From the NCBI GenBank assembly GCA_035516965.1, contig DATIZR010000061.1, positions 77,557-141,556 on the forward strand: a DNA stretch of 64,000 nucleotides, given 5' to 3'. The notes under the pieces were generated by a model that made no database searches, had not been told where the DNA came from, and worked only from the letters and a program-made list of their open reading frames with translations. The position numbers were made by a program, and so were the translations under genes. Shown here in pieces: positions 1 through 63,543 of this stretch (position 1 is its first letter; each line of letters opens with the position of its first letter). Origin of the DNA: Nitrospirota bacterium (GTDB lineage Bacteria > Nitrospirota > UBA9217).

Positions 1-238
1 CCGGGTTACCGGTCAGTGGCGCATTGAGAAGTAAAGGACTTAACCCCTAAAGCGGGTCAGGATCACAGCGGCGGGTCCGCTCCCGATTTTCACGGGATTC
101 CCTTGGCTTGAATGTCTCTCTCTATGTATAAGTGTTACATGTATACCACCGGTATCGGGCAAAGTCAATTTCATTTTCAGAGACTTATTTATATTGCTTC
201 AGGAAACAAAGAAACAAGATCCTGATCGCAAGGCATCT

Positions 239-11248: not shown

Positions 11249-12265
11249 CTACACCTTGGTCAAGGCCTTCATCAGGGCTTCCATGTTCTCCCGCGGCACT
11301 TCAGGCCAGAGATCGCAGCCGGGCCAGACCGCGTTCGCCCCACCCTTGAGGGAGTCGAGCGCCGCCGGGCCCACGTCCTTGGCCGCGCCCTTGTGGAGGA
11401 CCTTTATGGGATCGAAATTGCCGAGGATGAGGGCCCCGGCGCCGAGCTTCTGGCGCGTTTCAGCAATGCAGTTCTTTTGGTCAACGCTCACCGCGTCCGC
11501 TCCGCATTCGAACATATCCGTGATGATGGCATTCGTATCGCCACAGATGTGCAGGATGCTCGGTCGCGGCATTTCTGCCAGGATCCGGGTGAGATGGGGC
11601 TTGATCAGGCTCTTGAAGCTCCGCGGGCTCATCACATCCGAGGTTCCGCCCATTTCCCGAAGCGTAAAATAGTCAGCCCCGGCCTCCTGGTATACTTTGA
11701 AGACCTCCACGATGAAACCCGAGATCTTTTCCAGGAGTTTGGCCGTCTTTTCCGGTTCGAGAAAGGACTCCTCGAACAACACGTCGAGCTCTTTTATCTG
11801 GCCCGCAAGGGTAAAGGGGCCGAGGACATAGGTACCGATCGCAACGTCGTTCCCAAGCTCCCTTCTCAAGGCCTTGATGGCCTTGACCACCACGGGGATC
11901 CTCCCGGCGTTCCTGATGTCGGTGGGGATCTTGAGGTCGTCGGCGCTGGTAACGACTTTCTCCTTGACCGTGGGATAGAGGAGTCCTTCAACTTCATCAT
12001 AGAAGTTCATCTTCGATCCCAGCGCTTCAGCCTCCACGCCGAGGTCAAAGGGCACCACCGCGCATTCGAAGCCGAATTCCCGGTACATGCCGCCTGCCGC
12101 CCTGGCCATGAGCTCCGGGTCCCGGTGAACCTTTGAAAAAACTATTCCATTTTTGTCCAGGACCGGCTTGATGACATTCCCCATCCCGCTGAATATGGGC
12201 GGACGGTCAACCTTTTCTCCTTTGAGAAATTTCATAACCCGCTCTTTTGCCGTCAATGACGCCAT
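11249..12265 (-). CDS. uroporphyrinogen decarboxylase (URO-D) family methyltransferase (second paralog)
   Basis: 338 aa URO-D/MtaA-like fold; preceded by the conserved palindromic promoter module at 12373-12394. Confidence 0.85.
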   Translation of the reverse strand: MASLTAKERVMKFLKGEKVDRPPIFSGMGNVIKPVLDKNGIVFSKVHRDPELMARAAGGMYREFGFECAVVPFDLGVEAEALGSKMNFYDEVEGLLYPTVKEKVVTSADDLKIPTDIRNAGRIPVVVKAIKALRRELGNDVAIGTYVLGPFTLAGQIKELDVLFEESFLEPEKTAKLLEKISGFIVEVFKVYQEAGADYFTLREMGGTSDVMSPRSFKSLIKPHLTRILAEMPRPSILHICGDTNAIITDMFECGADAVSVDQKNCIAETRQKLGAGALILGNFDPIKVLHKGAAKDVGPAALDSLKGGANAVWPGCDLWPEVPRENMEALMKALTKV

Positions 12266-12372: not shown

Positions 12373-12394
12373 GTCAATCGGGGAAACCCTGATT
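12373..12394 (-). promoter_or_regulatory. 22-bp palindromic operator-like motif GTCAATCGGGGAAACCCTGATT overlapping a TTGAC -35 element, upstream of the URO-D methyltransferase gene
   Basis: Identical 22-mer also at 15177-15198 upstream of cooS. In gene orientation it reads AATCAGGGTTTCCCCGATTGAC-N17/18-AGTATG, i.e. a dyad centred about -43 (class II activator position) fused to a -35/-10-like pair. Confidence 0.5.
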
Positions 12395-12574
12395 CTCCAG
12401 AATAAAATACCTTAGCCATCCTATTTCGGCTCTCTCATCCGTGTAAGACTTCAGGATGACGAATACAAGGGTAACAGGATAAAAGTGATAGAATAAAATC
12501 GTACAAAAGTAACCTATCAATCGACAACACTCTGCGTTTTATAGAGATAACTCGCTCCTTCCGCTTTTGCCGAA

Positions 12575-13194: not shown

Positions 13195-15114
13195 CTATAC
13201 ATCAAAGGCGATCTCCCTCCGTTTTGCCAGGATATGTTCTTCGATCTCTTGAGCTGCCTTGACCGAATCGTCTTGCAGGAGCATTCTGCCGCCGGTAACA
13301 TCGACCATATCTTCGGTGAGGTATTTTTTCACGAGGGGACTGCCGCCGATCATCGGCTCAGGTGAAACATACGTCAGGAGTCCGTAAGCAAGGGCGGTAA
13401 AGATGTCGGCGATCGCCTTTTGCTCCATGTACTCGGGCACGGCCGCGGCTACGGGCAACTGGCTGGTGTCGCAGCCGATGGTCCAGGCGAGCGCCGCCAC
13501 GGTGTCAAGGATCTTACCCACGTCGGTGCAGGAGCCATAAGACACGATCGGAGGCACGTCGTATTTTTCACAGACCGACCTGAGTTTCCTGCCTGCTTTT
13601 TTTGCCATCTCTTTTGTCGACATACAGAGGTTCTGGTGCGTAGAGGAGCAGCATCCGGCCCCGATAACCATGATATCGCGCTTAATGAGTTCCAGCGTCA
13701 GCGTCTCTATCGAGCGGCCTCCCTGCTCATGCCGGGCGTTCGTGCATCCGGCGACGGCCACCGCGCCCTTGATGTTCCCCTTCTTCAGCTCATCGATGTA
13801 CGTGTTGATATTGTTCCCGAACATGGTGAGCACTGTCTCGGTCGTGTAGCCCGCGATGCACTGCGTTCCCTTCGCGCTCTTCGGGATATTGACGATTCTC
13901 TTTTTGTCCGCCTTCCTCGCTTTGAACTGTACCATGGCCGCATGGAGGATATGATCGGCCTGCTCGTCGGCTTGAGCGGGGTCGAAATCAACCGCATCCA
14001 CGCCGGGAAAGCGCACGACGGGGTCGGTGCTGATCAGCCTTGTTCCATATTTGTCAGCATAGTCCTTCAGAGTCGGCACGGAACAGTTCAGGTCCATGAG
14101 AAAGAGATCGATCAGCCCGGTGGCGATAAAGAGCTCTTCCTGTATCCAGTTCCCCAACTGCCCTCCGAAGATCTCCCGGTAATGGCCTTTACCCGAAACG
14201 TTCATGAGCTGCTGGCCCTCGCAGAGAGATCCGTAGAGTTTGATGCCCTTTGCCCCTGCATCCCGGGCGGCGGTCTGGAACGCTTTTCCTGCGGCTTTTT
14301 CCATGATGTGTCCGGCGAAGACCGGCTGGTGGCCGTTGGATACGATGTTCACCGTCTCCGGATCGAGACAGCCGACGTTCGACGAACCATTGACCAGTTC
14401 AGGCGTGCCGAGCAGAATATCCTGGATGACCGTGATCCCCCAGAGGCCGACGTATTCGTTTGCAAGACCGAGTCTCAATGCGCTCTGCATCAGATCGACA
14501 GGGTCATTGCTGACATTGGTCATGCACTTGGTGAGCGCGGTCAGGATCTCCGAACTCGGCCCGCCTGCGTAGAGGCCCTTTGCTTTCCAGAGTTCCCTTC
14601 TCTTGTCGACGGCAAAAAGGTCCATGAGCGTCATGGGCTCGTCACCCTGTTTGCCTATCTCGCGGAGGATGAAATCGGCGAACTGTGTCGCGAGCTCATG
14701 CACCGGCCGGGTGTGGTCCCAGCCAAGCCCCTGGCACATCCTCTGGAGTTTGCCTTCGTCCCTGAGCTTCAAGGGGGACTTCCCTTCGCCTATTGCCTTG
14801 AGCGTAGTAGCGAGATTGCGGCACTGGTAGGTGTTCGCAGCAGTGCCGATCGCCGCAAGTTTGAGCAGGTTGCGGGCGACAATGACATCGCCGCTTGCGC
14901 CGCACACTCCGAGCGGAGCCTTGCTCGTGATCCTGCAGGGGCCGTCGGAGCATAACTGGCAGCTGAGCCCTTTCTTGCAGGTGCCGCATTGGGGTTGCTG
15001 GGATTCGAACCGCTCGAAGACGGTGCTCATGCCCTGACTGACAGCGGCCTGATGCAGTTCGTGGCTTTGCTTGTCCTGATGACTTTTCTTCACAACGGTG
15101 ATTTTCGTCTGCAT
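13195..15114 (-). CDS. cooS: anaerobic Ni-dependent carbon monoxide dehydrogenase catalytic subunit CooS
   Basis: 639 aa; N-terminal QPQCGTCKKGLSCQLCSDGPCRI (B/D-cluster Cys pattern of Ni-CODH); size and conserved Cys/His positions fit CooS rather than the shorter hybrid-cluster protein. Confidence 0.85.
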   Translation of the reverse strand: MQTKITVVKKSHQDKQSHELHQAAVSQGMSTVFERFESQQPQCGTCKKGLSCQLCSDGPCRITSKAPLGVCGASGDVIVARNLLKLAAIGTAANTYQCRNLATTLKAIGEGKSPLKLRDEGKLQRMCQGLGWDHTRPVHELATQFADFILREIGKQGDEPMTLMDLFAVDKRRELWKAKGLYAGGPSSEILTALTKCMTNVSNDPVDLMQSALRLGLANEYVGLWGITVIQDILLGTPELVNGSSNVGCLDPETVNIVSNGHQPVFAGHIMEKAAGKAFQTAARDAGAKGIKLYGSLCEGQQLMNVSGKGHYREIFGGQLGNWIQEELFIATGLIDLFLMDLNCSVPTLKDYADKYGTRLISTDPVVRFPGVDAVDFDPAQADEQADHILHAAMVQFKARKADKKRIVNIPKSAKGTQCIAGYTTETVLTMFGNNINTYIDELKKGNIKGAVAVAGCTNARHEQGGRSIETLTLELIKRDIMVIGAGCCSSTHQNLCMSTKEMAKKAGRKLRSVCEKYDVPPIVSYGSCTDVGKILDTVAALAWTIGCDTSQLPVAAAVPEYMEQKAIADIFTALAYGLLTYVSPEPMIGGSPLVKKYLTEDMVDVTGGRMLLQDDSVKAAQEIEEHILAKRREIAFDV

Positions 15115-15176: not shown

Positions 15177-15198
15177 GTCAATCGGGGAAACCCTGATT
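15177..15198 (-). promoter_or_regulatory. second copy of the 22-bp palindromic motif plus TTGAC/AGTATG promoter-like elements, 62 nt upstream of cooS
   Basis: Exact 22/22 identity to 12373-12394, with conserved spacing to a downstream AGTATG. Confidence 0.5.
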
Positions 15199-15431
15199 TA
15201 GCCCCATGAAATGCCTGATACAGGCGCGAAACTCCTGCTGCAGGACCCGTGAACGACGCTGCGCCGTGTTCAGCTGATCGCCAGGGCCGGGGCAGTCGGC
15301 AAAAATGGTTCTGTGCTTTATTGCAGGGCCTTCCGGAGGATGAGGCGTACGTCAATGAGGGGGCATCGTTACAAGGGTCGACAGAAAAAGGGCTGGTGCA
15401 GGGCGGAGGTCGTTTTCCTGTTCATGAGTGA

Positions 15432-20862: not shown

Positions 20863-21465
20863 TTATGCTCGCTGTTTCCTTCGATGGTTCCATACGTACA
20901 CCGCGATGATCGCAGCGCTCAGGGCGATTGCGCCGAACAGCGCCTGGTGCGAATACTTCATGATCAGCTCCCGCTCGGCGCCGATGAAGTAGCCTATGGA
21001 GGTCAGGATCGTGACCCAGAGGCCCGCTCCGAGCAGCGTATAGAGAGAGAACTTGACGTGATTCATGCCCGCGAGGCCCGCGGGAAGCGAGATGAGGTGC
21101 CGCACCACGGGAAGCAGTCTTCCGATGAAGGTCGATACCTCGCCGTGGTCCGCGAAGAACCGCTCGACCTTCGCGAACTTCTCCTCGGTGATCCAGACGT
21201 ACTTGCCGTACTTCAGGAGCAGCGGCCTGCCGAGGTAATGGGCCGCGAAGTAGTTCGCGTAGGCGCCCACGAGGCTTCCCAGGGTCCCGCAGAAGATCGC
21301 GACGAACAGGTGCATCTGCCCCTGCTGGGCAAGGTACCCTGCCGGAGGCATGACCAGCTCGCTCGGGATCGGGATGACCGAGCTTTCCATGACCATGAGC
21401 AGGAAGATGCCGGGATACCCGAGCGCCCCGATGGTCAGGACCAGCCAGTTGATCAGTTCGTGCAT
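20863..21465 (-). CDS. DedA/SNARE-associated family membrane protein
   Basis: 200 aa polytopic membrane protein with the DedA signature region (GYPGIFLLMVMESSVIPIPSE). Confidence 0.85.
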   Translation of the reverse strand: MHELINWLVLTIGALGYPGIFLLMVMESSVIPIPSELVMPPAGYLAQQGQMHLFVAIFCGTLGSLVGAYANYFAAHYLGRPLLLKYGKYVWITEEKFAKVERFFADHGEVSTFIGRLLPVVRHLISLPAGLAGMNHVKFSLYTLLGAGLWVTILTSIGYFIGAERELIMKYSHQALFGAIALSAAIIAVYVWNHRRKQRA

Positions 21466-21539
21466 CGTAAAAGCTCCTTTTAACCGGAGATGAACACGGA
21501 TAAAGATGAAGCATGAACTTCCGCATCAGTCCGAATCAT

Positions 21540-21745
21540 TTCCTAACCCGGACAAGCCAGATCAAAACCAGAAGCTAAAGGCGTCTCTCGCGGAGCACGC
21601 GGAGGACGCAGAGTTTAAAACCAAAACCAGAAAGTCTCTCATGGCGAATTATTTTTTTATTTTCTCTGCGAGCTCTGCGCCTCTGCGAGATATCTTCTTG
21701 CCGCTTTGTAAAGAATTTGATTTGTTAGTTACCAACTATTTATTC
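21540..21745 (+). repeat. copy A of a roughly 195-205-bp AT-richer repeat element (inverted partner at 50072-50263)
   Basis: About 90% identity to the reverse complement of 50072-50263 over about 190 bp, differing mainly by two 9-bp tandem-unit indels (cgcggag / ctctgcg repeats). Contains an internal inverted repeat cgcagag...ctctgcg. Lies between dedA and era. Confidence 0.6.
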
Positions 21746-21817
21746 TAGCTGAAAGACTGAACCCGTACGAAATTATTGCCTTTGCCCGCCGCATCCTCCG
21801 CGCCTGCGGGTATCCGC

Positions 21818-22717
21818 CTACTCTTCCGTCACGAGCCCCAGGTTCTTGAGCATATGCTCGTCCTCGCGCCAGGCCTTCTTTACCTTCACCCAGAGCTGGA
21901 GGAAGATCTTCGCTCCGAGCAGTTTCTCGGCGTCCAGCCGGGCGAGCGTGCCGATCTTCTTCAGCATGGCCCCGCCCCTGCCGATCAGGATCCCCTTCTG
22001 CGATTCCCGCTCCACGTAGATGACGGCCGTGATCCGCGTGATCTCCGCCTCCTCTTTCATTTCCTCGATTACGACAGCTGTCGAATAGGGTATCTCATCC
22101 TTCGTGAGCTCGAAGATCTTCTCGCGGATAAGCTCGGACACGATGAACCGCTCGGGCTGGTCCGTGAGCTGGTCGTCGGGGAAGTACTTCGGACCCTCGG
22201 GGAGCCGCGCAAGGACCGACGGGATCAGCCCGCCGAGGTCGCTCCGGAGCGCCGAGACCGGGATGATCTCGGCAAAACCATACAGCCTGCTGTACTCCTG
22301 CATCAGGGGCAGGAGGCGCTCCTTCTCGACGAGGTCGATCTTGTTGATCAGCAGGTAGACCGGGGTTTTCACGTTCTTCAGGGTTTCGATGATGTACCGG
22401 TCCCCTCCGCCCGGCTTTTCCGTCGCCTCCGCGAGCATCAGGATCACGTCCACCTCGTTGTACGTGGCGAGCGCGGTCTTGACCATGACCTCGTTCATCC
22501 TGTGCATGGGCTTGTGGATGCCCGGCGTGTCCATGAAGACCATCTGCGCATTGCGCTCGTTCACGATCCCGAGTATGCGGTTCCGGGTGGTCTGCGGTTT
22601 GTCCGAGATGATGGCGATCTTCTCGCCCAGGAGCGCGTTCAGGAGCGTGGACTTGCCCACGTTCGGCCTGCCCACGATCGAGATGAAGCCGGACCTGAAT
22701 TTCTGCCCTTTGGTCAT
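21818..22717 (-). CDS. era: GTPase Era
   Basis: G1 GRPNVGKST, G-domain motifs, C-terminal KH domain. Start at MTKGQKF; the longer TTG-initiated extension is unlikely. Confidence 0.9.
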   Translation of the reverse strand: MTKGQKFRSGFISIVGRPNVGKSTLLNALLGEKIAIISDKPQTTRNRILGIVNERNAQMVFMDTPGIHKPMHRMNEVMVKTALATYNEVDVILMLAEATEKPGGGDRYIIETLKNVKTPVYLLINKIDLVEKERLLPLMQEYSRLYGFAEIIPVSALRSDLGGLIPSVLARLPEGPKYFPDDQLTDQPERFIVSELIREKIFELTKDEIPYSTAVVIEEMKEEAEITRITAVIYVERESQKGILIGRGGAMLKKIGTLARLDAEKLLGAKIFLQLWVKVKKAWREDEHMLKNLGLVTEE

Positions 22718-22801
22718 GCCGGCTAGAATACCCGAAAACACCGGCTCACGCAACAGAAAAGCCGGGAAACGCGACGAGAGAAGGTGGGAGGAACGTGACA
22801 A

Positions 22802-23304: not shown

Positions 23305-24108
23305 TCACCCCGTCCCCACGCTCTTCACCGCCGCAACAAACTCCTCGGCCCTCTCCACCTGCGGCATGTGGCCCGCGCCTTCTATCGGTATGAATGCCGG
23401 GTTGTTGAGCCATTTTCGTATGAGTTCGCGCTGATTCACAGATACGAGCCGGTCTCCGGTGCCCCAGATCACGGTTGTGGGGACCTTCGGCACGCTCTGC
23501 GGACGAGGCTGGTTCATGGCCGTATCGAACACGATCCGGCTGTGCTTGTCCTCGTATCCGCGTATCCGCTCGATAAAACCCGGCGGCAGGGCCGCTGGAC
23601 TCGGAAAAGCCCTGGCGAACGCCTTGTTCGAGTACACCATGTTGCGCATAAGGCTACGGAAAGGCTTTTCGATCATCGGGACACTGATGAGCTTTTTCAG
23701 GAAGGTCGGAACATAGGGAAGATGACCGCCGTTCACGATCACCAGATGTCTGGTGCAATCGGGGAACGTTGCTGCAAACTCGATGGCGTGCGCTACACCA
23801 AAGGAATTTCCGATCACAAGGACCCGATCGGCTCCAAGGCTCTCCACCAGGCTTTTCATCATACGAGCGCTTTCAGCAAGGGTCGGGATTGGCAGGGGGT
23901 CCGACTGAGCAAAGCCCGGCATGTCCGGCGCGATGATGGTGAAGGATCGGCTCAGGTCCTTCCAGACTGCTGACCAGCTCATCTCCGCATCGCCCCAGGC
24001 AGAGTGAAACAGCAGGAGCGCCGGGCCTGTCCCGCCAACCCAGACATGAACACTCCGTCCCAAGACCGTCAGGTCTTTCGGCTGTGGTATATTGTTTGAG
24101 GCAGTCAT
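23305..24108 (-). CDS. alpha/beta-fold hydrolase
   Basis: GNSFG nucleophile elbow (GxSxG), downstream His; start at MTASNN (24108) preferred over the long N-terminal extension. Confidence 0.8.
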   Translation of the reverse strand: MTASNNIPQPKDLTVLGRSVHVWVGGTGPALLLFHSAWGDAEMSWSAVWKDLSRSFTIIAPDMPGFAQSDPLPIPTLAESARMMKSLVESLGADRVLVIGNSFGVAHAIEFAATFPDCTRHLVIVNGGHLPYVPTFLKKLISVPMIEKPFRSLMRNMVYSNKAFARAFPSPAALPPGFIERIRGYEDKHSRIVFDTAMNQPRPQSVPKVPTTVIWGTGDRLVSVNQRELIRKWLNNPAFIPIEGAGHMPQVERAEEFVAAVKSVGTG

Positions 24109-26439: not shown

Positions 26440-27570
26440 ATGCAAATCGCAATCCTTATACTGCTCACCCTCGTCCTGCTCGTCCTGATCTGGTTCGTTC
26501 TCCAGTCCCGGAACAAGGCCGTCGATCCCGCCGTCTCGCTGCTCCAGCAGGAAGTCGAGTCCCTTCGAGGGCAATTGACCGAGTCCATGCAGAGAGGCCA
26601 GGAAAGCGTCAACCTGCAGCTCGGCGTGATCACGAGCCAGGTGAACAACCAGCTCGGCCAGGTGACGACCCAGGTGAACAACCAGTTGGGCCAGGTCACC
26701 ACGCAGCTCCAGAAATCCACGGGAGACCTGAACGCGCGGCTGGACAACGCGGCGAGGGTCGTTCAGGAAGTGAGCAAGAGCCTGGGGGGGTTGAACGAGG
26801 CCACGAAAAAGGTGTTCGACGTCGGCAAGGACATCGCAAGCCTGCAGGAGATCCTGAGGTCCCCGAAGCTGCGCGGAGGGCTCGGCGAGCTGTTTCTCGG
26901 CGACCTGCTGGCCCAGATCTTCCCCCCCGCCTACTATTCGCTGCAGCACAGGTTCAGGAGCGGAGAGGCCGTGGACGCGGTCATCAGGCTCGGCGACAAC
27001 CTGGTGCCCGTGGACGCCAAGTTCCCGCTGGAGAACTTCAGGCGCGTCGTAGAAACGGGTGAGGACGAGCAAAAGGCCGCGAAGAGAAAGTTCATAGCCG
27101 ACGTAAAGAAGCACATCGACGCCATTGCGGGCAAGTACATCCTGCCCGATGAGGGCACCTTCGATTTTGCGCTCATGTACATCCCGGCAGAGAACGTATA
27201 CTACGAACTGATCATCAAGGACGAGGCCGTGGACACGGAAAAGGCGCTGATCAACTACGCCTTCACGAAGCGCGTGATCCCCGTGTCTCCGAACAGCTTC
27301 TACGCCTATCTCCAGACGATCCTTTTGGGCCTCAAGGGCCTGCACATCGAGGAGCAGGCCCAGGATATCCTGAAGAACCTTGCCAGGCTTTCGGGCGATT
27401 TCAGAAAATTCCAGGAAGAGTTCGAACTGGTGGGGAAACACCTGTCAAATACGAAGGCGCGATATGATGAAGCGGACAAGCGGCTCGAAAGGTTCGGCGA
27501 CCGGCTTCAGGCATTGAGCGGAGCCGAAGCGACCCCCGTTGTGGAGGAAATAAGAAAACTGCCGCTCTAA
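26440..27570 (+). CDS. rmuC: DNA recombination protein RmuC
   Basis: N-terminal TM helix, long coiled-coil and conserved RmuC C-terminal domain (MYIPAENVYYE, VSPNSFYAYLQ). Confidence 0.85.
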   Translation: MQIAILILLTLVLLVLIWFVLQSRNKAVDPAVSLLQQEVESLRGQLTESMQRGQESVNLQLGVITSQVNNQLGQVTTQVNNQLGQVTTQLQKSTGDLNARLDNAARVVQEVSKSLGGLNEATKKVFDVGKDIASLQEILRSPKLRGGLGELFLGDLLAQIFPPAYYSLQHRFRSGEAVDAVIRLGDNLVPVDAKFPLENFRRVVETGEDEQKAAKRKFIADVKKHIDAIAGKYILPDEGTFDFALMYIPAENVYYELIIKDEAVDTEKALINYAFTKRVIPVSPNSFYAYLQTILLGLKGLHIEEQAQDILKNLARLSGDFRKFQEEFELVGKHLSNTKARYDEADKRLERFGDRLQALSGAEATPVVEEIRKLPL

Positions 27571-37125: not shown

Positions 37126-37497
37126 TCAGGCCTGCTTTTCCAGTGCCCGCTTGATCGACGCTTTCAATTCCTTGATCTTGACCGGTTTCGGGAAAAAATC
37201 ATGCACTTCCCGTCGCAGCGCTTCGATGGCGGCGTCGAGGTTGGCGAAAGCGGTGATCATGATGACCTGGGTAGCGGGGTAGCGGTCCTTGACCGTCTTC
37301 AGCACCTCCATGCCGTCGATCCCTTTCATTTTATAGTCGGTCACCACGACGTCGAATTTCTCGTCCTGCAGCCGCTTGAGCGCCGGCTCGGCGTTCAAGA
37401 AGGTTTCGACCACGTAGCCGTCCTGCTCGAGCGACAATCTTGCCATGTCTCCCACGATTTTTTCGTCATCAATGACCATGATTCTGCTCTTCGCCAT
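37126..37497 (-). CDS. single-domain response regulator (CheY-like receiver)
   Basis: MAKSRIMVIDDE..., D-D-D-T-K receiver residues; strong RBS AGGAGAGGAG. Confidence 0.85.
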   Translation of the reverse strand: MAKSRIMVIDDEKIVGDMARLSLEQDGYVVETFLNAEPALKRLQDEKFDVVVTDYKMKGIDGMEVLKTVKDRYPATQVIMITAFANLDAAIEALRREVHDFFPKPVKIKELKASIKRALEKQA

Positions 37498-48237: not shown

Positions 48238-48379
48238 CCGAAATCACCGAGGGTTCAGAGAACTGCTCCCTCGTGAAAGATGAACATCTTCCTCGGTGTG
48301 CTCTGTGTCCTCTGCGGTAAATCCTTCTTCACGTTCCTCTGGATGCCCTTGTGAAGATCCCGGTCCCGGATTTTCCGTA

Positions 48380-49418: not shown

Positions 49419-49949
49419 TCATGCGGCGCCGACGATCTTTTCATACTCTGCTATGACCTCGTCTTTCTGGTTCCTGATTTCCGCAGAGAATATGAAAAAC
49501 TTCGATTTTCTTCCGAGCAGCCTGACGTCAGCGAACAGGGTATCGCCAGGGCCGGCGTTCTTCTTATATCGTACGACCTTCTGGACAACATAGGGATCAC
49601 GGTCCAGCCCTTTCACCGACATCGGGATCAGTGCCGCGGCTACAAGACAGGCAAATTCATCCTGGGCATACCCCGGGTAGGTTGGAGCCCCCGGGAAATG
49701 GCCCTCAAGGTCGGGGTCGTCAATACTGATCCCCTTGACGCCTGTCATGAGATTCGGCGAACTGGAACAATACAGAGCACCGTCGATCTTTCTGAGTGCC
49801 GCTCCGCGGTGGGGCAGGATGGTCTCGAGGCTTTCCCTGTTGAAACAAAGGAACGGAGATTCCCTCGCTTTGCTCAATACTCCCGTCACTGCAACCCTTT
49901 TAGACCGGGGTGCCGGATCTAAGCGATGAAGATTCTGACTTGCCAGCAT
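49419..49949 (-). CDS. FabZ/FabA-like hotdog-fold dehydratase
   Basis: ILPHR...GHFPGAP...P(G) motif typical of beta-hydroxyacyl-ACP dehydratases; exact start uncertain. Confidence 0.65.
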   Translation of the reverse strand: MLASQNLHRLDPAPRSKRVAVTGVLSKARESPFLCFNRESLETILPHRGAALRKIDGALYCSSSPNLMTGVKGISIDDPDLEGHFPGAPTYPGYAQDEFACLVAAALIPMSVKGLDRDPYVVQKVVRYKKNAGPGDTLFADVRLLGRKSKFFIFSAEIRNQKDEVIAEYEKIVGAA

Positions 49950-50071: not shown

Positions 50072-50263
50072 TGTATCATTAGTAAGTAACAAATCGAATT
50101 CTTTACAAAACGGCAAGAAAATTTCTCGCAGAGGCGCAGAGAAAATAAAAAATAATTCGCCATGAAAGACTTTCGGGTTTTGGTTTTAAACTCTGCGTGC
50201 TCCGCGAGAGACGCCTTTAGCTTCTGGTTTTGATCCGGCTTGTCCGGGTTAGGATTATAACTT
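50072..50263 (-). repeat. copy B (inverted) of the roughly 195-bp repeat element also at 21540-21745
   Basis: Reverse complement aligns to 21540-21745 with about 90% identity; lies between the FabZ-like gene and the sigma54 regulator gene. Confidence 0.6.
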
Positions 50264-50265
50264 CG

Positions 50266-51615
50266 TCAGCTGTCCTGGTCGCCGTTTTCATCCTTCAATA
50301 TCCTCCACAGGCTCGTCCTCGAAATGCCGAGCACCTCCGCCGCCCGGGATCTGTTGCCGCCGAACAGTTCAACGACCTTCCCGGCATATTCCCTGTTCAG
50401 TTCATCGATGGTCTTGATCTTGTCAGGCTCGATCGTTTCGATCTGGAACATCTTGATCGTCTGGGGCAGGCTCTCGGGAGTGATCAGCGTCCCCTTTTCG
50501 AGGATGATGGCGCGCTCGATGATGTTCTCGAGCTCGCGGACGTTCCCCGGGAAGCTGTAGTGCAGCAGCACCTGCATCGCCTCTTTCGTGAACCCTGCGA
50601 TCTTCCTGCGCGACCGCGGCAGGTGCTTCTCGAGGAAATAAGTGCAGAGCGGGACGATGTCGTCGCGCCGGTCCCGGAGGGGCGGCGTGAATATTTCCAT
50701 GATGTTCAGCCGGTAATAGAGATCCTCGCGAAACCTGCCCTCCGCGATGACCGTACGCACGTTCTGGTTCGTGGCGGCGATGAAGCGCACGTCGACCCTG
50801 ATCGGCCGCGTTCCGCCCACGCGGTAGAACTCCCCCTCTTCGATCACCTTGAGCAGTTTGGCCTGGAGATTCGGGGCCAACTCGGCGATTTCGTCGAGGA
50901 ACAGTGTCCCCGTGTCGGCTATCTCCACCAGCCCCTGCTTGGTCTTGACCGCGCCGGTGAAGGCGCCCTTCTCGTGCCCGAAGAGTTCGCTCGCGAGCAG
51001 TTCCTCGGTCAGGGTCGCGCAGTTGATGGACAGGAAAGGCATGCCCTGGCGCCGGCTCGTAAAGTGGATGATCTTGGCGAGGAGGCTCTTGCCGACGCCG
51101 GTCTCGCCCGTCAGGAGCACGTTGCAGTCGGAGTCCTTCATGCCTTCGATCACGGACAGGATGTTGTTCATGGGTTCGCTCTTGGCGATGATCGATACCT
51201 TCTTATCCTGGTCCGCGTACGCCTTGAGCGCGACGTTCTCCTTCCTGAGCGCACGCTGGTCGAGGATCTTCCTGACCTTGAGCAGCAGCTCATCCAGATT
51301 GAAGGGCTTGGTGACGTAATCGTAGGCGCCCTTTTTCATGGCGTCGACCACGGAGCCGATGCTGCCGAAGCCGGTGATGATGATCACCTCGGATTCGATC
51401 TGCCGCTCCCGGATCCGCTCGAGCAGCTCGATCCCCGTCATACCCGGCATCTTGATGTCGGCTATCAGAAGATCAAAATGGTCCTTTTCGATCCTCTGCA
51501 GCGCGTCCGCGCCGTTCTGCGTGCCAATTGCCTGGTAGCCCTCCTTCTGGAGCGCGTTCAGCAGGTGCTTCAGAGTGATGTCTTCGTCTTCCGCGATCAA
51601 TATCTTGAATGCCAT
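50266..51615 (-). CDS. sigma54-dependent response regulator (NtrC family: REC + AAA+ sigma54 activator + Fis HTH)
   Basis: Receiver, GAFTGA (GHEKGAFTGA) and ESELFGHEKG motifs, C-terminal HTH. Start at MAFKILIAEDE with GGAAGGA RBS. Confidence 0.9.
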   Translation of the reverse strand: MAFKILIAEDEDITLKHLLNALQKEGYQAIGTQNGADALQRIEKDHFDLLIADIKMPGMTGIELLERIRERQIESEVIIITGFGSIGSVVDAMKKGAYDYVTKPFNLDELLLKVRKILDQRALRKENVALKAYADQDKKVSIIAKSEPMNNILSVIEGMKDSDCNVLLTGETGVGKSLLAKIIHFTSRRQGMPFLSINCATLTEELLASELFGHEKGAFTGAVKTKQGLVEIADTGTLFLDEIAELAPNLQAKLLKVIEEGEFYRVGGTRPIRVDVRFIAATNQNVRTVIAEGRFREDLYYRLNIMEIFTPPLRDRRDDIVPLCTYFLEKHLPRSRRKIAGFTKEAMQVLLHYSFPGNVRELENIIERAIILEKGTLITPESLPQTIKMFQIETIEPDKIKTIDELNREYAGKVVELFGGNRSRAAEVLGISRTSLWRILKDENGDQDS

Positions 51616-51733
51616 AACGAAAATTCCTTCCGGAGTGGGACGCGGATGAACACGGTTTTCACCGATACGTCCGGCAAAGCGTCTTTCCCGTTCCCTCCGC
51701 AACGATCAGCTCTAGCCACGTCCCGATCCCTGT

Positions 51734-58435: not shown

Positions 58436-60466
<2,031 letters not shown>

Positions 60467-60577
60467 AAGAGAGGCAATCCTGCAAAGTTGTCTTCTGAGG
60501 GTAGCCAACGGGGGCCGCCCCTACAAAGGTATCCGCGGTATCCGCGTTCGACCGTGTTTATCCGTGGTTAAAAAGCG

Positions 60578-62131
60578 ATGATCATGTTCAACTACCGCCC
60601 CAGCATACGTCAGAAAATCACCCTCGGCTACTTTGCGATCGTGGCCATGATCATCGCCCTGTCGCTCTTCACCTTCTTCGAACTGCGGTTCATCGAACGG
60701 AAGATCATCTTCGGGGAGGCCATATCGGAGTTCTTCGATACCACGCTCGAGATCAGGCGGTTCGAAAAGAACTACTTCCTCTACGAACAGGCGACGGATT
60801 ATCTCGAAAACACGAAGTATGTGGTCAAGGCGCTGGAGCTGCTCGAAAACAACTCGACCGGATTCGCGGCCCTGTCCTCGTCATCCCAGATCGAAACGCT
60901 CCGGGACCGGCTGGTCACCTACCGCCTCCTCGTTGACCAGTACGCCGCGATCAATAAACGGAAGCGACAGAGCAGAATGGTCGAAAACACGGCAAACAAG
61001 ACCATGCTGGAGGGGAAGATCCGGGTCGCCGGCAAGGACATCACGACCATAGCCGAGGATATCTCGAAGACCGAGCGCAAGAGCCTCCAGATGCTGCTCA
61101 AATCGTCCCAGCGCATCCTGGTCCTCTCCATCGTGCTGCTCTCCCTCGCCGTCATCGCCATCGGCCAGGTCTTCTCCCAAGTCGTCGTGAAACCGCTCAA
61201 GCTCATCGAGAAGAACATGGAGGTGATCGCCGACGGTCGGTTCGAGAAGATCCAGATCGAGTCCCGCGACCGGGAGATCGCTTCGCTGACAAATGCCTTC
61301 AACAAGATGCTCCGGGAACTGGAGCTCCGGCAGCGGCATCTCGTCCAGTCCGAAAAGCTCGCCTCCCTGGGCACGCTGCTCTCCGGCGTGGCCCACGAGT
61401 TGAATAACCCGCTGTCGAACATATCTTCGTCGAACCAGATCCTGATCGAGGAACTGAAAGAGGCGCAGGAAAAACCGGAGAGCGGCGGGTTGCCCCTGGA
61501 CCCCGCCTTTGCCAACGAGCTCCTGACGCAGATCAACGAACAGACGGACCGGGCCAGGAACATCGTCCGCTCGCTGCTCGAGTTCTCGCGGGACAAGGAC
61601 TTCAAGAAGCAGAGCCTGCCGGTCCGGGCCCTCTTCGACGAGACCCTGCGGTTCGTGAAAGGCCAGATCCCGGCGAACACGGCGATCAGGATCGAAGTCC
61701 CCGACGATGTGGCGATCACCGCGGACAAGCAGCGCATCCAGCAGGCGTTCCTGAACCTCATCAAGAACGCGCTCGATGCCGTTGCCGATCAGGGGGGCGG
61801 GACCGTGTCGATCACCGCACACCGCCACAGCGCCATCGACAAGGCCGGCGACGACGACACGGGCATCTACAACTATCTCAAGTACCGCGGCAAGTGCACG
61901 CTCGAGCAGGACACCGTCGACATCGAGATAAGGGACACCGGCCCCGGCATCCCGGTCGAGGCGATCCCGAAGATCTTCGACCCCTTTTTCACGACCAAGG
62001 ATGTGGGAAAGGGTTCGGGTCTCGGGCTGTTCATCGTCCATGAGATCATCGAAGAGCACGACGGCTGCATCGCCGTGGACAGCGGGCCGGGCGAGGGAAC
62101 GACGTTCCTGATGCGTCTGCCGGTGAAGTAA
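60578..62131 (+). CDS. sensor histidine kinase (EKNYFLY-type sensor, HAMP, HisKA, HATPase_c)
   Basis: H-box GVAHELNNPLSNI; N/G boxes; third paralog of this kinase type in the window. Confidence 0.85.
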   Translation: MIMFNYRPSIRQKITLGYFAIVAMIIALSLFTFFELRFIERKIIFGEAISEFFDTTLEIRRFEKNYFLYEQATDYLENTKYVVKALELLENNSTGFAALSSSSQIETLRDRLVTYRLLVDQYAAINKRKRQSRMVENTANKTMLEGKIRVAGKDITTIAEDISKTERKSLQMLLKSSQRILVLSIVLLSLAVIAIGQVFSQVVVKPLKLIEKNMEVIADGRFEKIQIESRDREIASLTNAFNKMLRELELRQRHLVQSEKLASLGTLLSGVAHELNNPLSNISSSNQILIEELKEAQEKPESGGLPLDPAFANELLTQINEQTDRARNIVRSLLEFSRDKDFKKQSLPVRALFDETLRFVKGQIPANTAIRIEVPDDVAITADKQRIQQAFLNLIKNALDAVADQGGGTVSITAHRHSAIDKAGDDDTGIYNYLKYRGKCTLEQDTVDIEIRDTGPGIPVEAIPKIFDPFFTTKDVGKGSGLGLFIVHEIIEEHDGCIAVDSGPGEGTTFLMRLPVK

Positions 62132-62181: not shown

Positions 62182-63543
62182 GTGAACAACAACACGAAAC
62201 TACTCATCATCGACGACGAGCGCGTGGCGCTCAGGAACCTCGAACACGTCATGAAAAAAGAGGGCTACGACGTGACCGGCACCCAGAGCGGCGCGAACGC
62301 CCTGAAGCTGCTCGAGGGCCAGCACTTCGACGTGGTCCTCACGGACCTGCGGATGGAGAAAGTCGACGGCATGGAGATCCTGAAGCGCTGCCGCGAGCTC
62401 TACCCCGACACGGAAGTGATCATGATCACCGGCTTTGCGACGCTGGAGTCCGGCGTCGACGCCATGAAGCACGGGGCCTTCTATTACATCGCCAAGCCCT
62501 TCAAGCTCGACGAGGTCCGCAAGGTCGTGAAGGAGGCGGTCGAGAAGGTCTCGCTCAAGAAGGAGAACGAACACCTCCGGGAGCAGCTCGAGCACTACCG
62601 GGGCAGGGTCAAGATCATCACCCAGGACCCGGCCATGCAGCGCCTGCTCGACACTGCTCGCCAGATCGGCCCTACGGACTGCAACGTGCTGATCTCGGGC
62701 GAGAGCGGGACGGGCAAGGAACTGTTCGCCCGGTATCTCCACGTCAGCAGCAAGCGCGCCGAAGGCCCCTTCTTCGCCATCAACTGCGGCGCCTTCAACG
62801 AGGAGCTCCTGACGAGCGAGCTCTTCGGCCACGAGAAGGGCTCATTCACCGGGGCGAACGCGTTCAAGAAGGGCCTGATCGAAATGGCCACGGGAGGGAC
62901 GCTCTTCCTCGACGAGATCACCGAGATGCCTGCGTCCATGCAGGTGAAGCTCCTGCGCGTGATCCAGGAGCGCGAGATGATCCGCGTGGGAGGAACGGAA
63001 CAGATCAAGGTGGACGTGCGCCTCGTGGCCGCGACGAACAGGAACATCCAGGACGCGATCAAGGAAGGCGCCTTCCGGCAGGACCTGTACTTCCGCCTGA
63101 ACGTGGTGACCCTGCACATACCGCCGCTGTCTGAACGCAAGGACGATATTCCCCTCCTCTCCTACTACTTCCTGAAGAAATACGCGGTCATCATGAAGAA
63201 GGACGTGAACGACATCTCCCAGGACGTGATCGGCCTCCTCCTGGGGTACGATTTCCCGGGGAACGTGCGGGAGCTCGAGAACATCATCGAACGCGGCGTG
63301 GCCCTTGCCACGGGGAATGCCATCGAGCTCGCTCACCTGCCCGAGGACCTGCGGGAACTGAACATCAGGACCTTCCGCAAGAAGGAGGGCAAGATCCCCT
63401 CGCTGGAAGAGCAGGAGACGGCCTACATCAAGTGGGTGCTGAACGAGGTCGGCGGGAACAAGACGCTGGCATCCCAGATCCTGGGCATCGACCGCGTGTC
63501 GCTCTGGAGAAAGCTCAAGAAGTACGGGCTGGAGCCGGAATAA
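62182..63543 (+). CDS. sigma54-dependent response regulator (NtrC family)
   Basis: Receiver + AAA+ (GESGTGKE, GHEKGSFTGA GAFTGA-type) + C-terminal HTH. Confidence 0.9.
   Translation: MNNNTKLLIIDDERVALRNLEHVMKKEGYDVTGTQSGANALKLLEGQHFDVVLTDLRMEKVDGMEILKRCRELYPDTEVIMITGFATLESGVDAMKHGAFYYIAKPFKLDEVRKVVKEAVEKVSLKKENEHLREQLEHYRGRVKIITQDPAMQRLLDTARQIGPTDCNVLISGESGTGKELFARYLHVSSKRAEGPFFAINCGAFNEELLTSELFGHEKGSFTGANAFKKGLIEMATGGTLFLDEITEMPASMQVKLLRVIQEREMIRVGGTEQIKVDVRLVAATNRNIQDAIKEGAFRQDLYFRLNVVTLHIPPLSERKDDIPLLSYYFLKKYAVIMKKDVNDISQDVIGLLLGYDFPGNVRELENIIERGVALATGNAIELAHLPEDLRELNIRTFRKKEGKIPSLEEQETAYIKWVLNEVGGNKTLASQILGIDRVSLWRKLKKYGLEPE

What the first reader, a model, noticed from the sequence alone, without database searches (positions are those of the whole stretch)
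21540..21745. Roughly 195-bp element present as an inverted pair 28.5 kb apart (21540-21745 and 50072-50263)
The two copies are about 90% identical in opposite orientation, AT-richer than the flanks, and differ mainly by gain or loss of 9-bp tandem units (cgcggagcac / ctctgcg), typical of slipped-strand variation in non-coding repeats. The small ORFs overlapping them (MANYF...) change frame between copies, so the element is not protein-coding. It could be a multi-copy small-RNA gene, a MITE-like repeat, or recombination sites bracketing an invertible or mobilisable 28.5-kb segment (era through fabZ-like). The orientation relative to the adjacent downstream gene differs between copies, arguing against a simple shared promoter.
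Basis: seen in the sequence. Interest (0 to 1): 0.55.

Follow-up and report, generated by a model that had tools for sequence, protein, structure and literature searches.

The report
Dispersed hairpin repeat family in Nitrospirota
The two inverted 195-bp copies are ordinary members of a many-copy, non-coding, hairpin-forming repeat scattered between genes of an uncultured Nitrospirota bacterium; this is a new family of a well-known kind of small repetitive DNA, not a switch or a special pair.

Summary
Copy A (21542-21735, +) and copy B (50079-50253, -) are 94% identical at aligned bases and AT-richer than their flanks. They differ mainly by one 9-nt unit in each of two tandem arrays.

The interpretation needs narrowing. 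One 19-mer from the element found at least 11 further insertion sites with unrelated flanks in metagenome contigs of the same population, giving at least 13 sites in all. All are intergenic and lie in either orientation. Some sit inside a histidine-biosynthesis operon. The copies form a star-like family: mean pairwise identity is 93.7%, with 50 private and 8 shared variants. A and B are not each other's closest relatives.

The two 9-nt arrays are complementary. They form the arms of a roughly 108-nt interrupted hairpin, flanked by a 5' and a 3' module. The same arms occur with other loops and without the outer modules. Related arms, built from CRCRGAG / CTCYGYG units, recur in other Nitrospirota MAGs.

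I found no Rfam match, no conserved ORF, no promoter, and no clear terminal inverted repeats or target-site duplications. No recombinase lies nearby. The era-dedA junction at copy A is conserved in relatives.

Best reading: a new REPIN/ERIC/BOX-like interspersed palindromic repeat. The inversion-site and sRNA-gene readings are not supported.

The parts
21542..21735 (+). Copy A of the ~195-nt element, full length, with 3+3 nine-nt units. It lies antisense to the flanking era -> dedA genes.
   Evidence: nhmmer with the family HMM gives 21542-21735, score 233.5. See also the alignments.
21542..21581 (+). 5' module of copy A (CCTAACCCGGACAAGCC.GATCAAAACCAGAAGCTAAAGGCG). In most copies it contains a small CCGG/CCGG hairpin.
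   Evidence: Alignments A2 and A3. The first 27 nt also occur alone at L020 10940-10967.
21582..21692 (+). Hairpin core of copy A: a 24-bp stem interrupted by two small internal loops, with an AT-rich extension and a ~50-nt loop.
   Evidence: Folds (-43.2 kcal/mol). Core HMM hit at 21582-21692.
21589..21613 (+). 5' arm: tandem 9-nt units CGCGGAGCA CGCGGAGGA CGCAGAG.
   Evidence: TRF period 9, 2.8 copies. Regex scan.
21664..21689 (+). 3' arm: tandem units CTCTGCGAG CTCTGCGC CTCTGCGAG, complementary to the 5' arm with G.T wobbles.
   Evidence: TRF. Pairing.
21693..21735 (+). 3' module of copy A, the most variable part of the family, with a fuzzy right end (GATTTGTTAGTTAC...).
   Evidence: Substitution density is 6.8% here and 19% in the tail, against 2-3% elsewhere.
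50079..50253 (-). Copy B of the element, with 2+2 units. It lies in the sense orientation, 11-12 nt after the stop codon of a sigma-54 response-regulator gene and upstream of a FabA-like gene.
   Evidence: nhmmer gives 50253-50079, score 194.5. Gene context.
50122..50213 (-). Hairpin core of copy B, one unit shorter in both arms.
   Evidence: Core HMM. Fold at -29.8 kcal/mol. The same locus in another sample (L009) has 3+2 units.
50113..50129 (-). Small terminator-like hairpin inside the 3' module (GCGAGAAATTTTCTTGC followed by CGTTTTGT).
   Evidence: Consensus scan. This is a pattern match only.
21818..22801 (-). era (GTPase plus KH domain). Its stop codon lies 80 nt from the 3' end of copy A.
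   Evidence: Pfam. Gene model.
20863..21465 (-). DedA/VTT-family membrane protein gene. Its start lies 76 nt from the 5' end of copy A.
50266..51702 (-). Sigma-54-dependent response regulator gene, upstream of copy B.
   Evidence: Pfam.
49419..49949 (-). FabA-like / hotdog-fold gene, downstream of copy B. A TTGACA-16-TATACT promoter-like site at 49983-49956 lies outside the element.
   Evidence: Pfam. Promoter scan.

Best explanation
The element is one member of a family of small, non-coding, interspersed palindromic repeats in the chromosome of an uncultured Nitrospirota bacterium. It works like REPINs, ERIC, BOX or Correia elements.

Architecture:
- The functional core is a ~108-nt hairpin.
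- Its two arms are each three tandem 9-nt units, CGCRGAG+2 nt on one arm and CTCTGCG+2 nt on the other.
- The 195-nt form adds a 5' and a 3' module around this core.

Shown:
- The element is present at 13 or more unrelated intergenic sites, in both orientations.
- It was amplified recently from a master sequence and is now decaying neutrally.
- Its arms gain and lose 9-nt units, and this varies between strains.
- The two window copies have no special relationship to each other.

Inferred:
- Copies are made in trans by an enzyme that recognises the conserved hairpin arms in single-stranded form. This would be REPIN/RAYT-like or another route that needs neither terminal inverted repeats nor target-site duplications.
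- Unit number changes by replication slippage. The two arms are then brought back into register by intrastrand (quasi-palindrome) templated repair or by selection for pairing.
- Once inserted, the element is co-transcribed with its neighbours. Its long hairpin acts as an RNA 3'-end, stability or processing element of variable effect, rather than as a gene or a switch.
For: Multi-copy and dispersed:
- One 19-mer found 16 true element-bearing loci in JGI metagenome contigs. Together with the window these collapse to at least 13 distinct sites with unrelated flanks.
- Four further hits to the 19-mer were chance matches.
- Short-read contigs repeatedly end inside the element (L001, L005, L015, L018, L102).

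Recent burst:
- Mean pairwise identity is 93.7%, range 90.4-96.2.
- There are 50 private and 8 shared variants. A and B are 94.1% identical.

Non-coding and intergenic:
- No high-scoring ORF overlaps any copy.
- The copies are sense, antisense, convergent or divergent to their neighbours.
- Three hairpin elements sit in or after the hisH-hisA-hisF part of a his operon.

Insertion at copy A:
- The era-dedA spacer is 352 nt in the window. It is about 153-165 nt in the closest relatives, so 156 nt of spacer plus 196 nt of element accounts for the length.

Hairpin:
- It is predicted in every copy, at -38 to -53 kcal/mol for 3+3 copies.
- The arms are conserved while the loops differ among the full element, L018b, L013b and L030.
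- Across 11 hairpins, heptamer position 2 pairs as G-C 16, A-T 8, mismatched 4.

Indel dynamics:
- L009 is the same locus as copy B and 99.5% identical over 2644 nt. Both of its gaps fall inside the element. It has 3+2 units, where the window has 2+2 and the family norm is 3+3.

Lineage:
- Era is at most 84% identical to Nitrospirota MAGs.
- Arrays of CRCRGAG / CTCYGYG units occur in 9 of about 20 Nitrospirota loci and 2 of about 60 other loci.

REPIN definition used for comparison: PMC3116915.
Against: - No mobilising enzyme was found. A crude HUH-motif scan of 180 kb of same-population DNA was empty.
- The only transposases seen near a copy (IS110-family and rve-type in L016) are single instances.
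- There are no consistent target-site duplications or target motifs, and only a 5-nt CTAAC...GTTAG terminal complementarity.
- No filled-versus-empty polymorphism was observed at strain level.
- All extra copies were ascertained with one 19-mer from three related samples. They are assumed, not proven, to belong to one genome.
- Within the family there are 0 compensatory pairs, and stems are no better conserved than the loop. Selection on structure is therefore visible only between subfamilies.
- The arms are 100% identical over ~30 nt between this genome and L030, although Era is only 81% identical. This could mean a host function rather than selfish spread.
- Transcription and RNA effects were not tested.
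Confidence: 0.72

Rival explanations
1. It is a classical MITE. That would make it a deletion derivative of a DDE-transposase insertion sequence, moved by cut-and-paste through terminal inverted repeats and leaving target-site duplications.
For: - The element is small, AT-rich, non-coding, multi-copy and intergenic, with a star-like phylogeny.
- Weak end complementarity exists: CTAAC...GTTAG and ATCAAA/TTTGAT.
- Several sites show 4-5-nt similarities between the left flank and the right tail (TAAT, TAATT, TAAG, ATTT).
- One copy abuts an rve-type IS.
Against: - The flank similarities are not at a fixed distance from the ends and are absent at about half of the sites.
- The outer modules are not significantly palindromic. 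Reverse-strand HMM hits cover only the core.
- No IS with matching ends was found in 180 kb of held DNA.
Confidence: 0.13
2. It is a host-selected structural module, such as a transcription terminator, an mRNA stabiliser or an RNase III site. On this reading it is kept because of its function and spread or homogenised by recombination, and is not a selfish mobile element.
For: - Elements lie directly after stop codons: 11 nt at copy B, 1 nt at L004 and about 0 nt after hisF.
- Elements lie between cistrons of the his operon.
- The era-dedA spacer carries a long periodic-arm hairpin of one kind or another in many relatives.
- The arms are conserved across species.
- A small terminator-like hairpin with a T run lies in the 3' module.
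Against: - Orientation is random with respect to transcription.
- The 5' and 3' modules and the loop are as conserved as the stem. This fits recent copying, not selection on structure.
- The closest relatives lack the element at the era-dedA site.
- No canonical terminator was found in copy A.
Confidence: 0.1
3. It is a multi-copy small-RNA gene, or the mRNA of a type I toxin-like small protein (MANYFLIFSASSAPLREIFLPFCKEFDLL...).
For: - The E+ strand of copy A folds better than shuffles (z = -3.3).
- G.T wobbles are much more frequent than A.C at heptamer position 4 (11 against 1), which favours one strand.
- The ORF is intact in 8 of 12 copies.
Against: - There is no Rfam match at E <= 10.
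- There is no promoter-like site in or next to copy A.
- Copy B's z-score is only -1.9, and the opposite strand folds about as well.
- Within stems, one-sided changes that create G.U (9) and A.C (10) are equally common.
- The ORF has no stop codon inside the element and only a weak GAAAG Shine-Dalgarno-like sequence. It is frameshifted or stopped in winB, L021, L019 and L013.
Confidence: 0.04
4. The two copies are recombination sites for inversion or mobilisation of the 28.5-kb segment between them.
For: They are inverted relative to each other and 94% identical, so RecA-dependent inversion between them is physically possible.
Against: - They are two of at least 13 copies and are not sister copies.
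- No invertase, integrase or transposase lies in or beside the segment.
- era-dedA-recO synteny across copy A is shared with 17 relatives.
- An independent assembly (L009) spans copy B in the same arrangement.
Confidence: 0.02

Closest known systems
REPINs (REP doublets forming hairpins) mobilised by RAYT tyrosine transposases; Bertels & Rainey 2011, PMC3116915
   Same: - Two conserved inverted arms are separated by a less conserved spacer and form a ~100-nt hairpin in ssDNA or RNA.
- The copies are extragenic, numerous and dispersed.
- The population has a master-sequence structure.
- Complementarity between the arms is maintained.
- There are no terminal inverted repeats or target-site duplications of the DDE kind.
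- The arm motif persists across a bacterial lineage.
   Different: - Each arm here is a tandem array of three 9-nt units, not a ~20-25-nt REP palindrome.
- The 195-nt form carries extra non-palindromic 5' and 3' modules.
- No RAYT gene has been linked to it, and this could not be tested without the genome.
- There is no sequence similarity to known REPs.
BOX elements of Streptococcus pneumoniae (own knowledge)
   Same: Both are modular intergenic repeats with a variable number of internal subunits and a predicted stable secondary structure. Both are found in either orientation near genes.
   Different: - BOX subunits (boxA, boxB, boxC) are 45-59 nt. Here only 9-nt units vary, and they do so in both arms of one hairpin.
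- The sequences are unrelated and the phylum is different.
ERIC/IRU elements of enterobacteria and Correia (CREE/NEMIS) elements of Neisseria (own knowledge)
   Same: Both are 100-150-nt imperfect palindromes in transcribed intergenic DNA, in both orientations. Size variants arise from internal insertions and deletions. They are co-transcribed and fold into hairpins that affect mRNA processing or stability.
   Different: - Those families have long terminal inverted repeats and TA target duplications, which were not found here.
- The sequences are unrelated.
Bacterial MITEs such as Chunjie (Geobacter uraniireducens) and Nezha (cyanobacteria) (own knowledge)
   Same: Both are small, AT-rich, non-autonomous repeats. 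They can be inserted within operons without disrupting them, and they show recent bursts.
   Different: Defined terminal inverted repeats, target-site duplications and a cognate IS are known for those elements. None could be shown here.

Membership tests
MITE (miniature inverted-repeat transposable element) | Small (<~500 bp), with no coding capacity | tested here: met
   The element is 175-196 nt. The only ORF is broken in 4 of 12 copies and has no stop codon inside the element. It has no Pfam hit (protein 10).
MITE (miniature inverted-repeat transposable element) | Many dispersed, highly similar copies | tested here: met
   At least 13 sites with unrelated flanks, at 90-96% pairwise identity.
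MITE (miniature inverted-repeat transposable element) | Terminal inverted repeats | tested here: not met
   Only CTAAC...GTTAG (5 nt) and an ATCAAA/TTTGAT match were found. Reverse-strand HMM hits cover the core only.
MITE (miniature inverted-repeat transposable element) | Target-site duplication of fixed length | tested here: not met
   In the flank tabulation of 11 sites, short matches appear at some sites but not at a fixed offset. No common target structure was found.
MITE (miniature inverted-repeat transposable element) | Cognate autonomous IS with the same ends | not testable with these tools
   None was found in ~180 kb of held same-population DNA.
REPIN / REP-RAYT system | Two conserved arms in inverted orientation, separated by a less conserved spacer and forming a hairpin | tested here: met
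   Searches show the hairpin. One search shows the arms conserved and the loops different among four element types.
REPIN / REP-RAYT system | Extragenic and over-represented | tested here: met
   All copies are intergenic. The window holds 5 unit arrays against 0.21 in shuffles.
REPIN / REP-RAYT system | Changes on one arm matched on the other | tested here: inconclusive
   Between subfamilies the match holds: position 2 pairs as G-C 16, A-T 8, mismatched 4. Unit loss also occurs in both arms, from L009 (3+2) to winB (2+2). Within the family there are 0 compensatory substitutions.
REPIN / REP-RAYT system | Each arm is a REP, a short imperfect palindrome of ~20-25 nt | tested here: not met
   The arms are tandem 9-nt units. 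They are not self-complementary beyond CTC...GAG.
REPIN / REP-RAYT system | A single-copy RAYT (Y1/HUH) gene flanked by the repeats | not testable with these tools
   A crude HxH...Y motif scan of 180 kb gave 0 hits. This covers only a few per cent of a genome.
Any Rfam RNA family (sRNA, riboswitch, ribozyme, omega/HEARO-type RNAs) | Covariance-model match | tested here: not met
   Nothing was found at the gathering threshold in the window except a cobalamin riboswitch at 1-168. At E <= 10 on 21440-21840 only noise appeared. Nothing was found on L016.
Site-specific invertible segment (invertase/shufflon type) | A recombinase gene next to, or inside, a segment bounded by exactly two inverted sites | tested here: not met
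   The segment genes are NadA, RmuC, Kup, TatA, kinases and regulators, PPDK-like, MFS, Usp and TauE. The 'sites' occur at 13 or more places.
Site-specific invertible segment (invertase/shufflon type) | Both orientations observable | tested here: not met
   Only one arrangement was seen. era-dedA synteny is shared with relatives, and L009 spans copy B identically. Read-level data are not available.
Type I toxin or other small protein gene | ORF conserved in frame, with start, stop and ribosome-binding site | tested here: not met
   One search shows frameshifts in winB and L021, stop codons in L019 and L013, a CTG start in L004, and no stop codon inside the element.

The most novel reading that the evidence does not exclude
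The CRCRGAG/CTCYGYG-armed hairpins could be a lineage-wide, vertically persistent replicator system of this Nitrospirota clade, analogous to REPIN-RAYT. Arms made of tandem 7+2-nt units would be the recognition element for a dedicated single-strand-specific enzyme that has not yet been identified. That enzyme could be an HUH or IS110-like recombinase, or a host RNA- or DNA-binding protein. The 195-nt element would then be a recently expanded composite member of this system.

Three observations are compatible with this reading but do not prove it:
- the strand-asymmetric G.T wobble (11 against 1);
- the arm sequence conserved across genomes whose Era proteins are only 72-84% identical to the window's;
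- the re-symmetrisation of unit number between the two arms.
Probability: 0.2. Interest if true: 0.55.

Novelty: new member of a known kind. Interest (0 to 1): 0.3.

Why it matters
The practical points come first. The element explains why short-read assemblies of this population break at these positions. It also warns against reading any two copies as a functional pair or as the boundaries of an island.

Biologically, it adds a repeat family from an uncultured, poorly studied Nitrospirota lineage to the small set of bacterial interspersed palindromic repeats. It has one unusual feature: the hairpin arms are built from tandem 9-nt units whose number changes in both arms.

A cognate enzyme could turn out to recognise these arms. 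That would extend the REPIN-type 'replicator within a genome' idea to a new phylum and a new arm architecture. The elements' positions after stop codons and between cistrons of a his operon also make them candidates for modulating mRNA ends in these organisms.

Tried and rejected
1. Genome-contig scan with the 20-mer CAGAAGCTAAAGGCGTCTCT gave 0 hits. The species, or the element, is absent from the 185,579 species representatives.

2. Plasmid and phage collections (blastn, distant mode) and IMG/VR (26-mer of the 3' arm) gave no match.

3. Literature searches by sequence words and by MITE/REPIN plus Nitrospirota found nothing describing this element.

4. Target-site duplication and target-hairpin search gave no consistent signal.

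5. The solo 5'-end fragment in L020 was checked as a possible IS end. Its neighbours are a transketolase-like gene and a CMD-family gene, not a transposase.

6. Structure-specific constraint was tested. Paired columns looked more conserved (Fisher p = 0.003). A regional breakdown shows this is caused by the variable 3' module and tail, because the loop (2.4%) is as conserved as the arms (1.9-3.2%). I therefore rejected this as evidence for a selected structure.

7. I first read L030's element as lying in the same orientation as copy A, because of a shared GGCTTGTCC motif. HMM scores (60.9 against 44.0) and loop similarity show that it lies in the opposite orientation relative to era. This favours independent insertion or a hotspot over orthology.

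8. A 'hairpin' at 23426-23573 turned out to lie inside a hydrolase gene and was dropped.

9. The low-GC locus L008 was checked for mobile genes. It holds only an SRAP-family gene and unannotated ORFs.

10. The greedy longest-ORF gene calls were wrong on this GC-rich DNA. I replaced them with a codon-usage-scored model.

Full report
**Observation**

The two copies are real. The repeat finder reports three ungapped inverted blocks of 63-65 nt at 90-97% complementarity. The gapped alignment shows one continuous homology. A family HMM places the boundaries at 21542-21735 (+) and 50079-50253 (-).

Thirty-one-mers from the element occur only at these two places in the 64-kb window, against zero in shuffles. 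The copies are 94.1% identical at aligned bases. Their GC is 0.45 and 0.42, against about 0.6 in the flanks.

They differ chiefly by one 9-nt unit in the array CGCGGAGCA/CGCGGAGGA/CGCAGAG and by about 10 nt in the array CTCTGCGAG/CTCTGCGC/CTCTGCGAG.

**Anatomy**

The two tandem arrays are complementary to each other. CTCGCGGAG pairs with CTCTGCGAG through one G.T wobble. They form the arms of a long interrupted hairpin:
- helices of 10, 7 and 7 bp separated by small internal loops;
- an AT-rich extension;
- a ~50-nt loop.

This hairpin is predicted in every copy, at about -38 to -53 kcal/mol for the ~108-nt core of the copies with 3+3 units. Both strands fold about equally well.

Around the core lie a 5' module (CCTAACCCGGACAAGCCGGATCAAAACCAGAAGCTAAAGGCG) and a more variable 3' module. 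The 3' module contains a small terminator-like hairpin with a T run. The difference between copies A and B is therefore loss of one unit from both arms.

**Copy number and distribution**

The 20-mer CAGAAGCTAAAGGCGTCTCT is absent from 185,579 species-representative genomes. A 19-mer found 20 loci in JGI metagenome contigs. Four of these are chance matches. The other 16 carry the element.

After merging identical loci from different samples, there are at least 13 distinct sites with unrelated flanks, counting the two in the window. Two contigs carry two copies each. Five short-read contigs end inside the element, which is the usual sign of a repeat that assemblers cannot cross.

The Era protein of the window is at most 84% identical to proteins of uncultured Nitrospirota MAGs. 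The host is therefore an unrepresented Nitrospirota species. I assume, but did not prove, that the element-bearing contigs belong to that one population. Their GC is mostly 0.56-0.64, and two of them overlap the window at 99.5-99.9% identity.

**Family structure**

Eleven distinct full copies have a mean pairwise identity of 93.7%. There are 50 private and 8 shared variants, and each copy lies 3-10 substitutions from the consensus. This is a star-like pattern, expected after a burst of copying from a master sequence followed by independent decay. Copies A and B are not each other's nearest relatives, so a local duplication is excluded.

**Context**

With a codon-usage-scored gene model, no copy overlaps a credible gene. 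The orientations are:
- sense to both neighbours: winB, L008, L004, L011;
- antisense to both neighbours: winA, L019, L021;
- between convergent genes: L013, L016;
- between divergent genes: L017.

Several copies begin 1-12 nt after a stop codon.

In L013, three elements of the hairpin family lie in a histidine-biosynthesis operon. One sits between hisH and hisA, one between hisA and hisF, and one directly after hisF. These elements are therefore tolerated inside polycistronic units and must be co-transcribed there.

**Insertion at copy A**

era-dedA(-recO) synteny is shared with 17 related MAGs. The era-dedA spacer is about 153-165 nt in the closest relatives and 352 nt in the window, which equals 156 nt of spacer plus the 196-nt element. 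This junction is thus the ancestral arrangement with an added element.

That argues against copy A being an inversion or island boundary. The 28.5-kb segment encodes NadA, RmuC, Kup, TatA, histidine kinases and response regulators, a PPDK-like enzyme, an MFS transporter, DUF202/MshEN proteins, Usp proteins and TauE. It encodes no recombinase or transposase. An independent assembly (L009) spans copy B in the same arrangement.

**What it is not**

- It matches no Rfam family, even at E <= 10.
- No sigma-70-like promoter lies in or beside copy A.
- Within the family no pair shows a compensatory double change.
- One-sided changes creating G.U (9) and A.C (10) are equally frequent.
- The loop (2.4% variant cells) is as conserved as the arms (1.9-3.2%). 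An apparent excess conservation of paired columns (p = 0.003) is explained by the variable 3' module and tail.
- The ORF MANYFLIFSASSAPL... is intact in 8 of 12 copies. It is frameshifted in winB and L021 and stopped in L019 and L013. It lacks a stop codon inside the element and has no Pfam match.
- No terminal inverted repeat beyond CTAAC...GTTAG was found, and no fixed target-site duplication or common target structure.
- Nothing similar exists in the plasmid, phage or IMG/VR collections.
- Nothing similar was found in the searched literature.

**A wider hairpin family**

The core occurs without the outer modules (L018 177-287) and with a different loop (L013 1934-2057). It also occurs in another species, L030, in the same era-dedA spacer but in the opposite orientation. 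In all of these the arms are nearly identical while the loops differ.

More distant hairpins have arms built from CACRGAG / CTCYGTG units. They occur in L013c, L029, L032, L036, L039 and L073. Arrays of such units are found in 9 of about 20 Nitrospirota loci, but in only 2 of about 60 loci from other phyla.

Over 11 hairpins, heptamer position 2 pairs as G-C 16 times, A-T 8 times and is mismatched 4 times. Complementarity is therefore maintained between subfamilies (CGC..GCG against CAC..GTG). Position 4 is G.T 11 times and A.C once, a wobble asymmetry that favours one strand. These counts are not phylogenetically independent.

**Dynamics of the arms**

The locus of copy B exists in another sample (L009) at 99.5% identity over 2644 nt. 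Both gaps between the two sequences fall inside the element. L009 has three units in the 5' arm and two in the 3' arm. The window has two and two, and the family norm is three and three.

This shows that unit number changes at strain level. The order 3+3 -> 3+2 -> 2+2 is an inference. So is the restoration of register, which could arise by quasi-palindrome (intrastrand template-switch) repair or by selection for pairing.

**Most likely mechanism**

The properties shown here are:
- conserved inverted arms around a less conserved spacer;
- extragenic location;
- many copies;
- a master-sequence population;
- no terminal inverted repeats or target-site duplications;
- lineage-wide persistence of the arm motif.

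These match most closely what Bertels and Rainey defined as REPINs (PMC3116915). There is added modularity and subunit variation reminiscent of BOX elements, and the operon-internal locations are typical of REP/ERIC/Correia elements.

I therefore commit to a non-autonomous interspersed palindromic repeat. I infer that it is copied in trans by an enzyme recognising the hairpin arms in single-stranded form, and that it acts on neighbours only through the RNA hairpin it contributes to their transcripts.

Membership in the REPIN/RAYT family itself cannot be claimed. The arms are not REP palindromes, and no RAYT could be sought genome-wide. A crude motif scan of 180 kb was negative.

One lead remains open. 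The most divergent copy (L016) lies 407 nt downstream of an IS110-family transposase gene and directly abuts an rve-type IS. IS110-family elements also lack terminal inverted repeats and target-site duplications, and they often target palindromic repeats (own knowledge). This is a single instance.

**Verdict**

The element is a new family of a known kind of bacterial repeat. It is of moderate-to-low interest in itself. It carries a modest chance of marking an undescribed REPIN-like replicator system in Nitrospirota.

Noticed in passing
window 60440-60560: An intergenic hairpin of a different sequence type lies between a Lon-like/response-regulator gene (58436-60466) and a histidine kinase gene (60578-62131). 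Its arms are also short tandem units: ATGCGGA x2.3 at 60449-60464 and GGTATCCGC x2.1 at 60528-60546. Periodic-arm hairpins therefore seem to be a general feature of this genome's spacers.
   Followed up: partly
window 48290-48318: A degenerate array of the same unit type (CTCGGTG TG CTCTGTG TC CTCTGCGG) lies in the spacer between the TauE gene and the 164-aa gene. It is probably a decayed member of the hairpin superfamily.
   Followed up: partly
window 21738-21817, and the era-dedA spacers of L024, L039 and L073: Directly after the era stop codon the spacer carries GCGGA-type short tandem motifs. In the window this reads GCGGATACCCGCAGGCGCGGAGGATGCGGCGGGC. In the relatives it appears as 7-nt TGCGGAx / ATTGCGG repeats. 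The closest relatives (L036, L026, L029, L028) instead have an AT-rich periodic hairpin (CCAAAT... / ATTTG... units) at the same place.
   Followed up: partly
L016 3-881 and 1485-2298: The most divergent element copy (1289-1483) lies between a partial IS110-family transposase gene (DEDD_Tnp_IS110 plus Transposase_20) and an rve-type (IS3/IS481-like) IS. The terminal sequence of that IS (TGTCAGGACATCGGTTACCCGA) directly abuts the element's 3' tail. This is either an IS-rich spot or IS targeting of the palindromic repeat.
   Followed up: partly
L020 10940-10975; L021 11078-11086; L017 1000-1017; L030 7040-7075: The reverse complement of the element's 5' end (CCGGCTTGTCCGGGTTAGG, followed by AG or GGGG) lies 5-9 nt upstream of predicted start codons at several sites. 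There its AGG/AGGAG could serve as a Shine-Dalgarno sequence. This may be coincidence, or the end module may mimic or supply a ribosome-binding site.
   Followed up: no
window 12373-12412 and 15177-15216: A 40-nt direct repeat at 80% identity shares the 22-nt palindromic core GTCAATCGGGGAAACCCTGATT. It lies in two spacers upstream of minus-strand genes (11249-12265 and 13195-15114) in a corrinoid/methyltransferase-type gene cluster. It could be a shared operator or a small regulatory hairpin.
   Followed up: no
window 1-168 (-): A cobalamin riboswitch aptamer (RF00174, 33.2 bits against a gathering score of 31.5) is cut off by the window start.
   Followed up: no
window 26617-26706: A 33-nt in-frame tandem repeat (2.7 copies, 82% matches) lies inside the RmuC-family gene. 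It encodes repeated QLGQVTTQVNN-like segments.
   Followed up: no
window 51289-51435 / 62368-62514 / 58907-59101 / 37301-37394: Long-range repeats at 70-77% identity reported by the repeat finder fall inside paralogous sigma-54 activator, response-regulator and kinase genes. They are coding paralogy, not repeat elements.
   Followed up: partly
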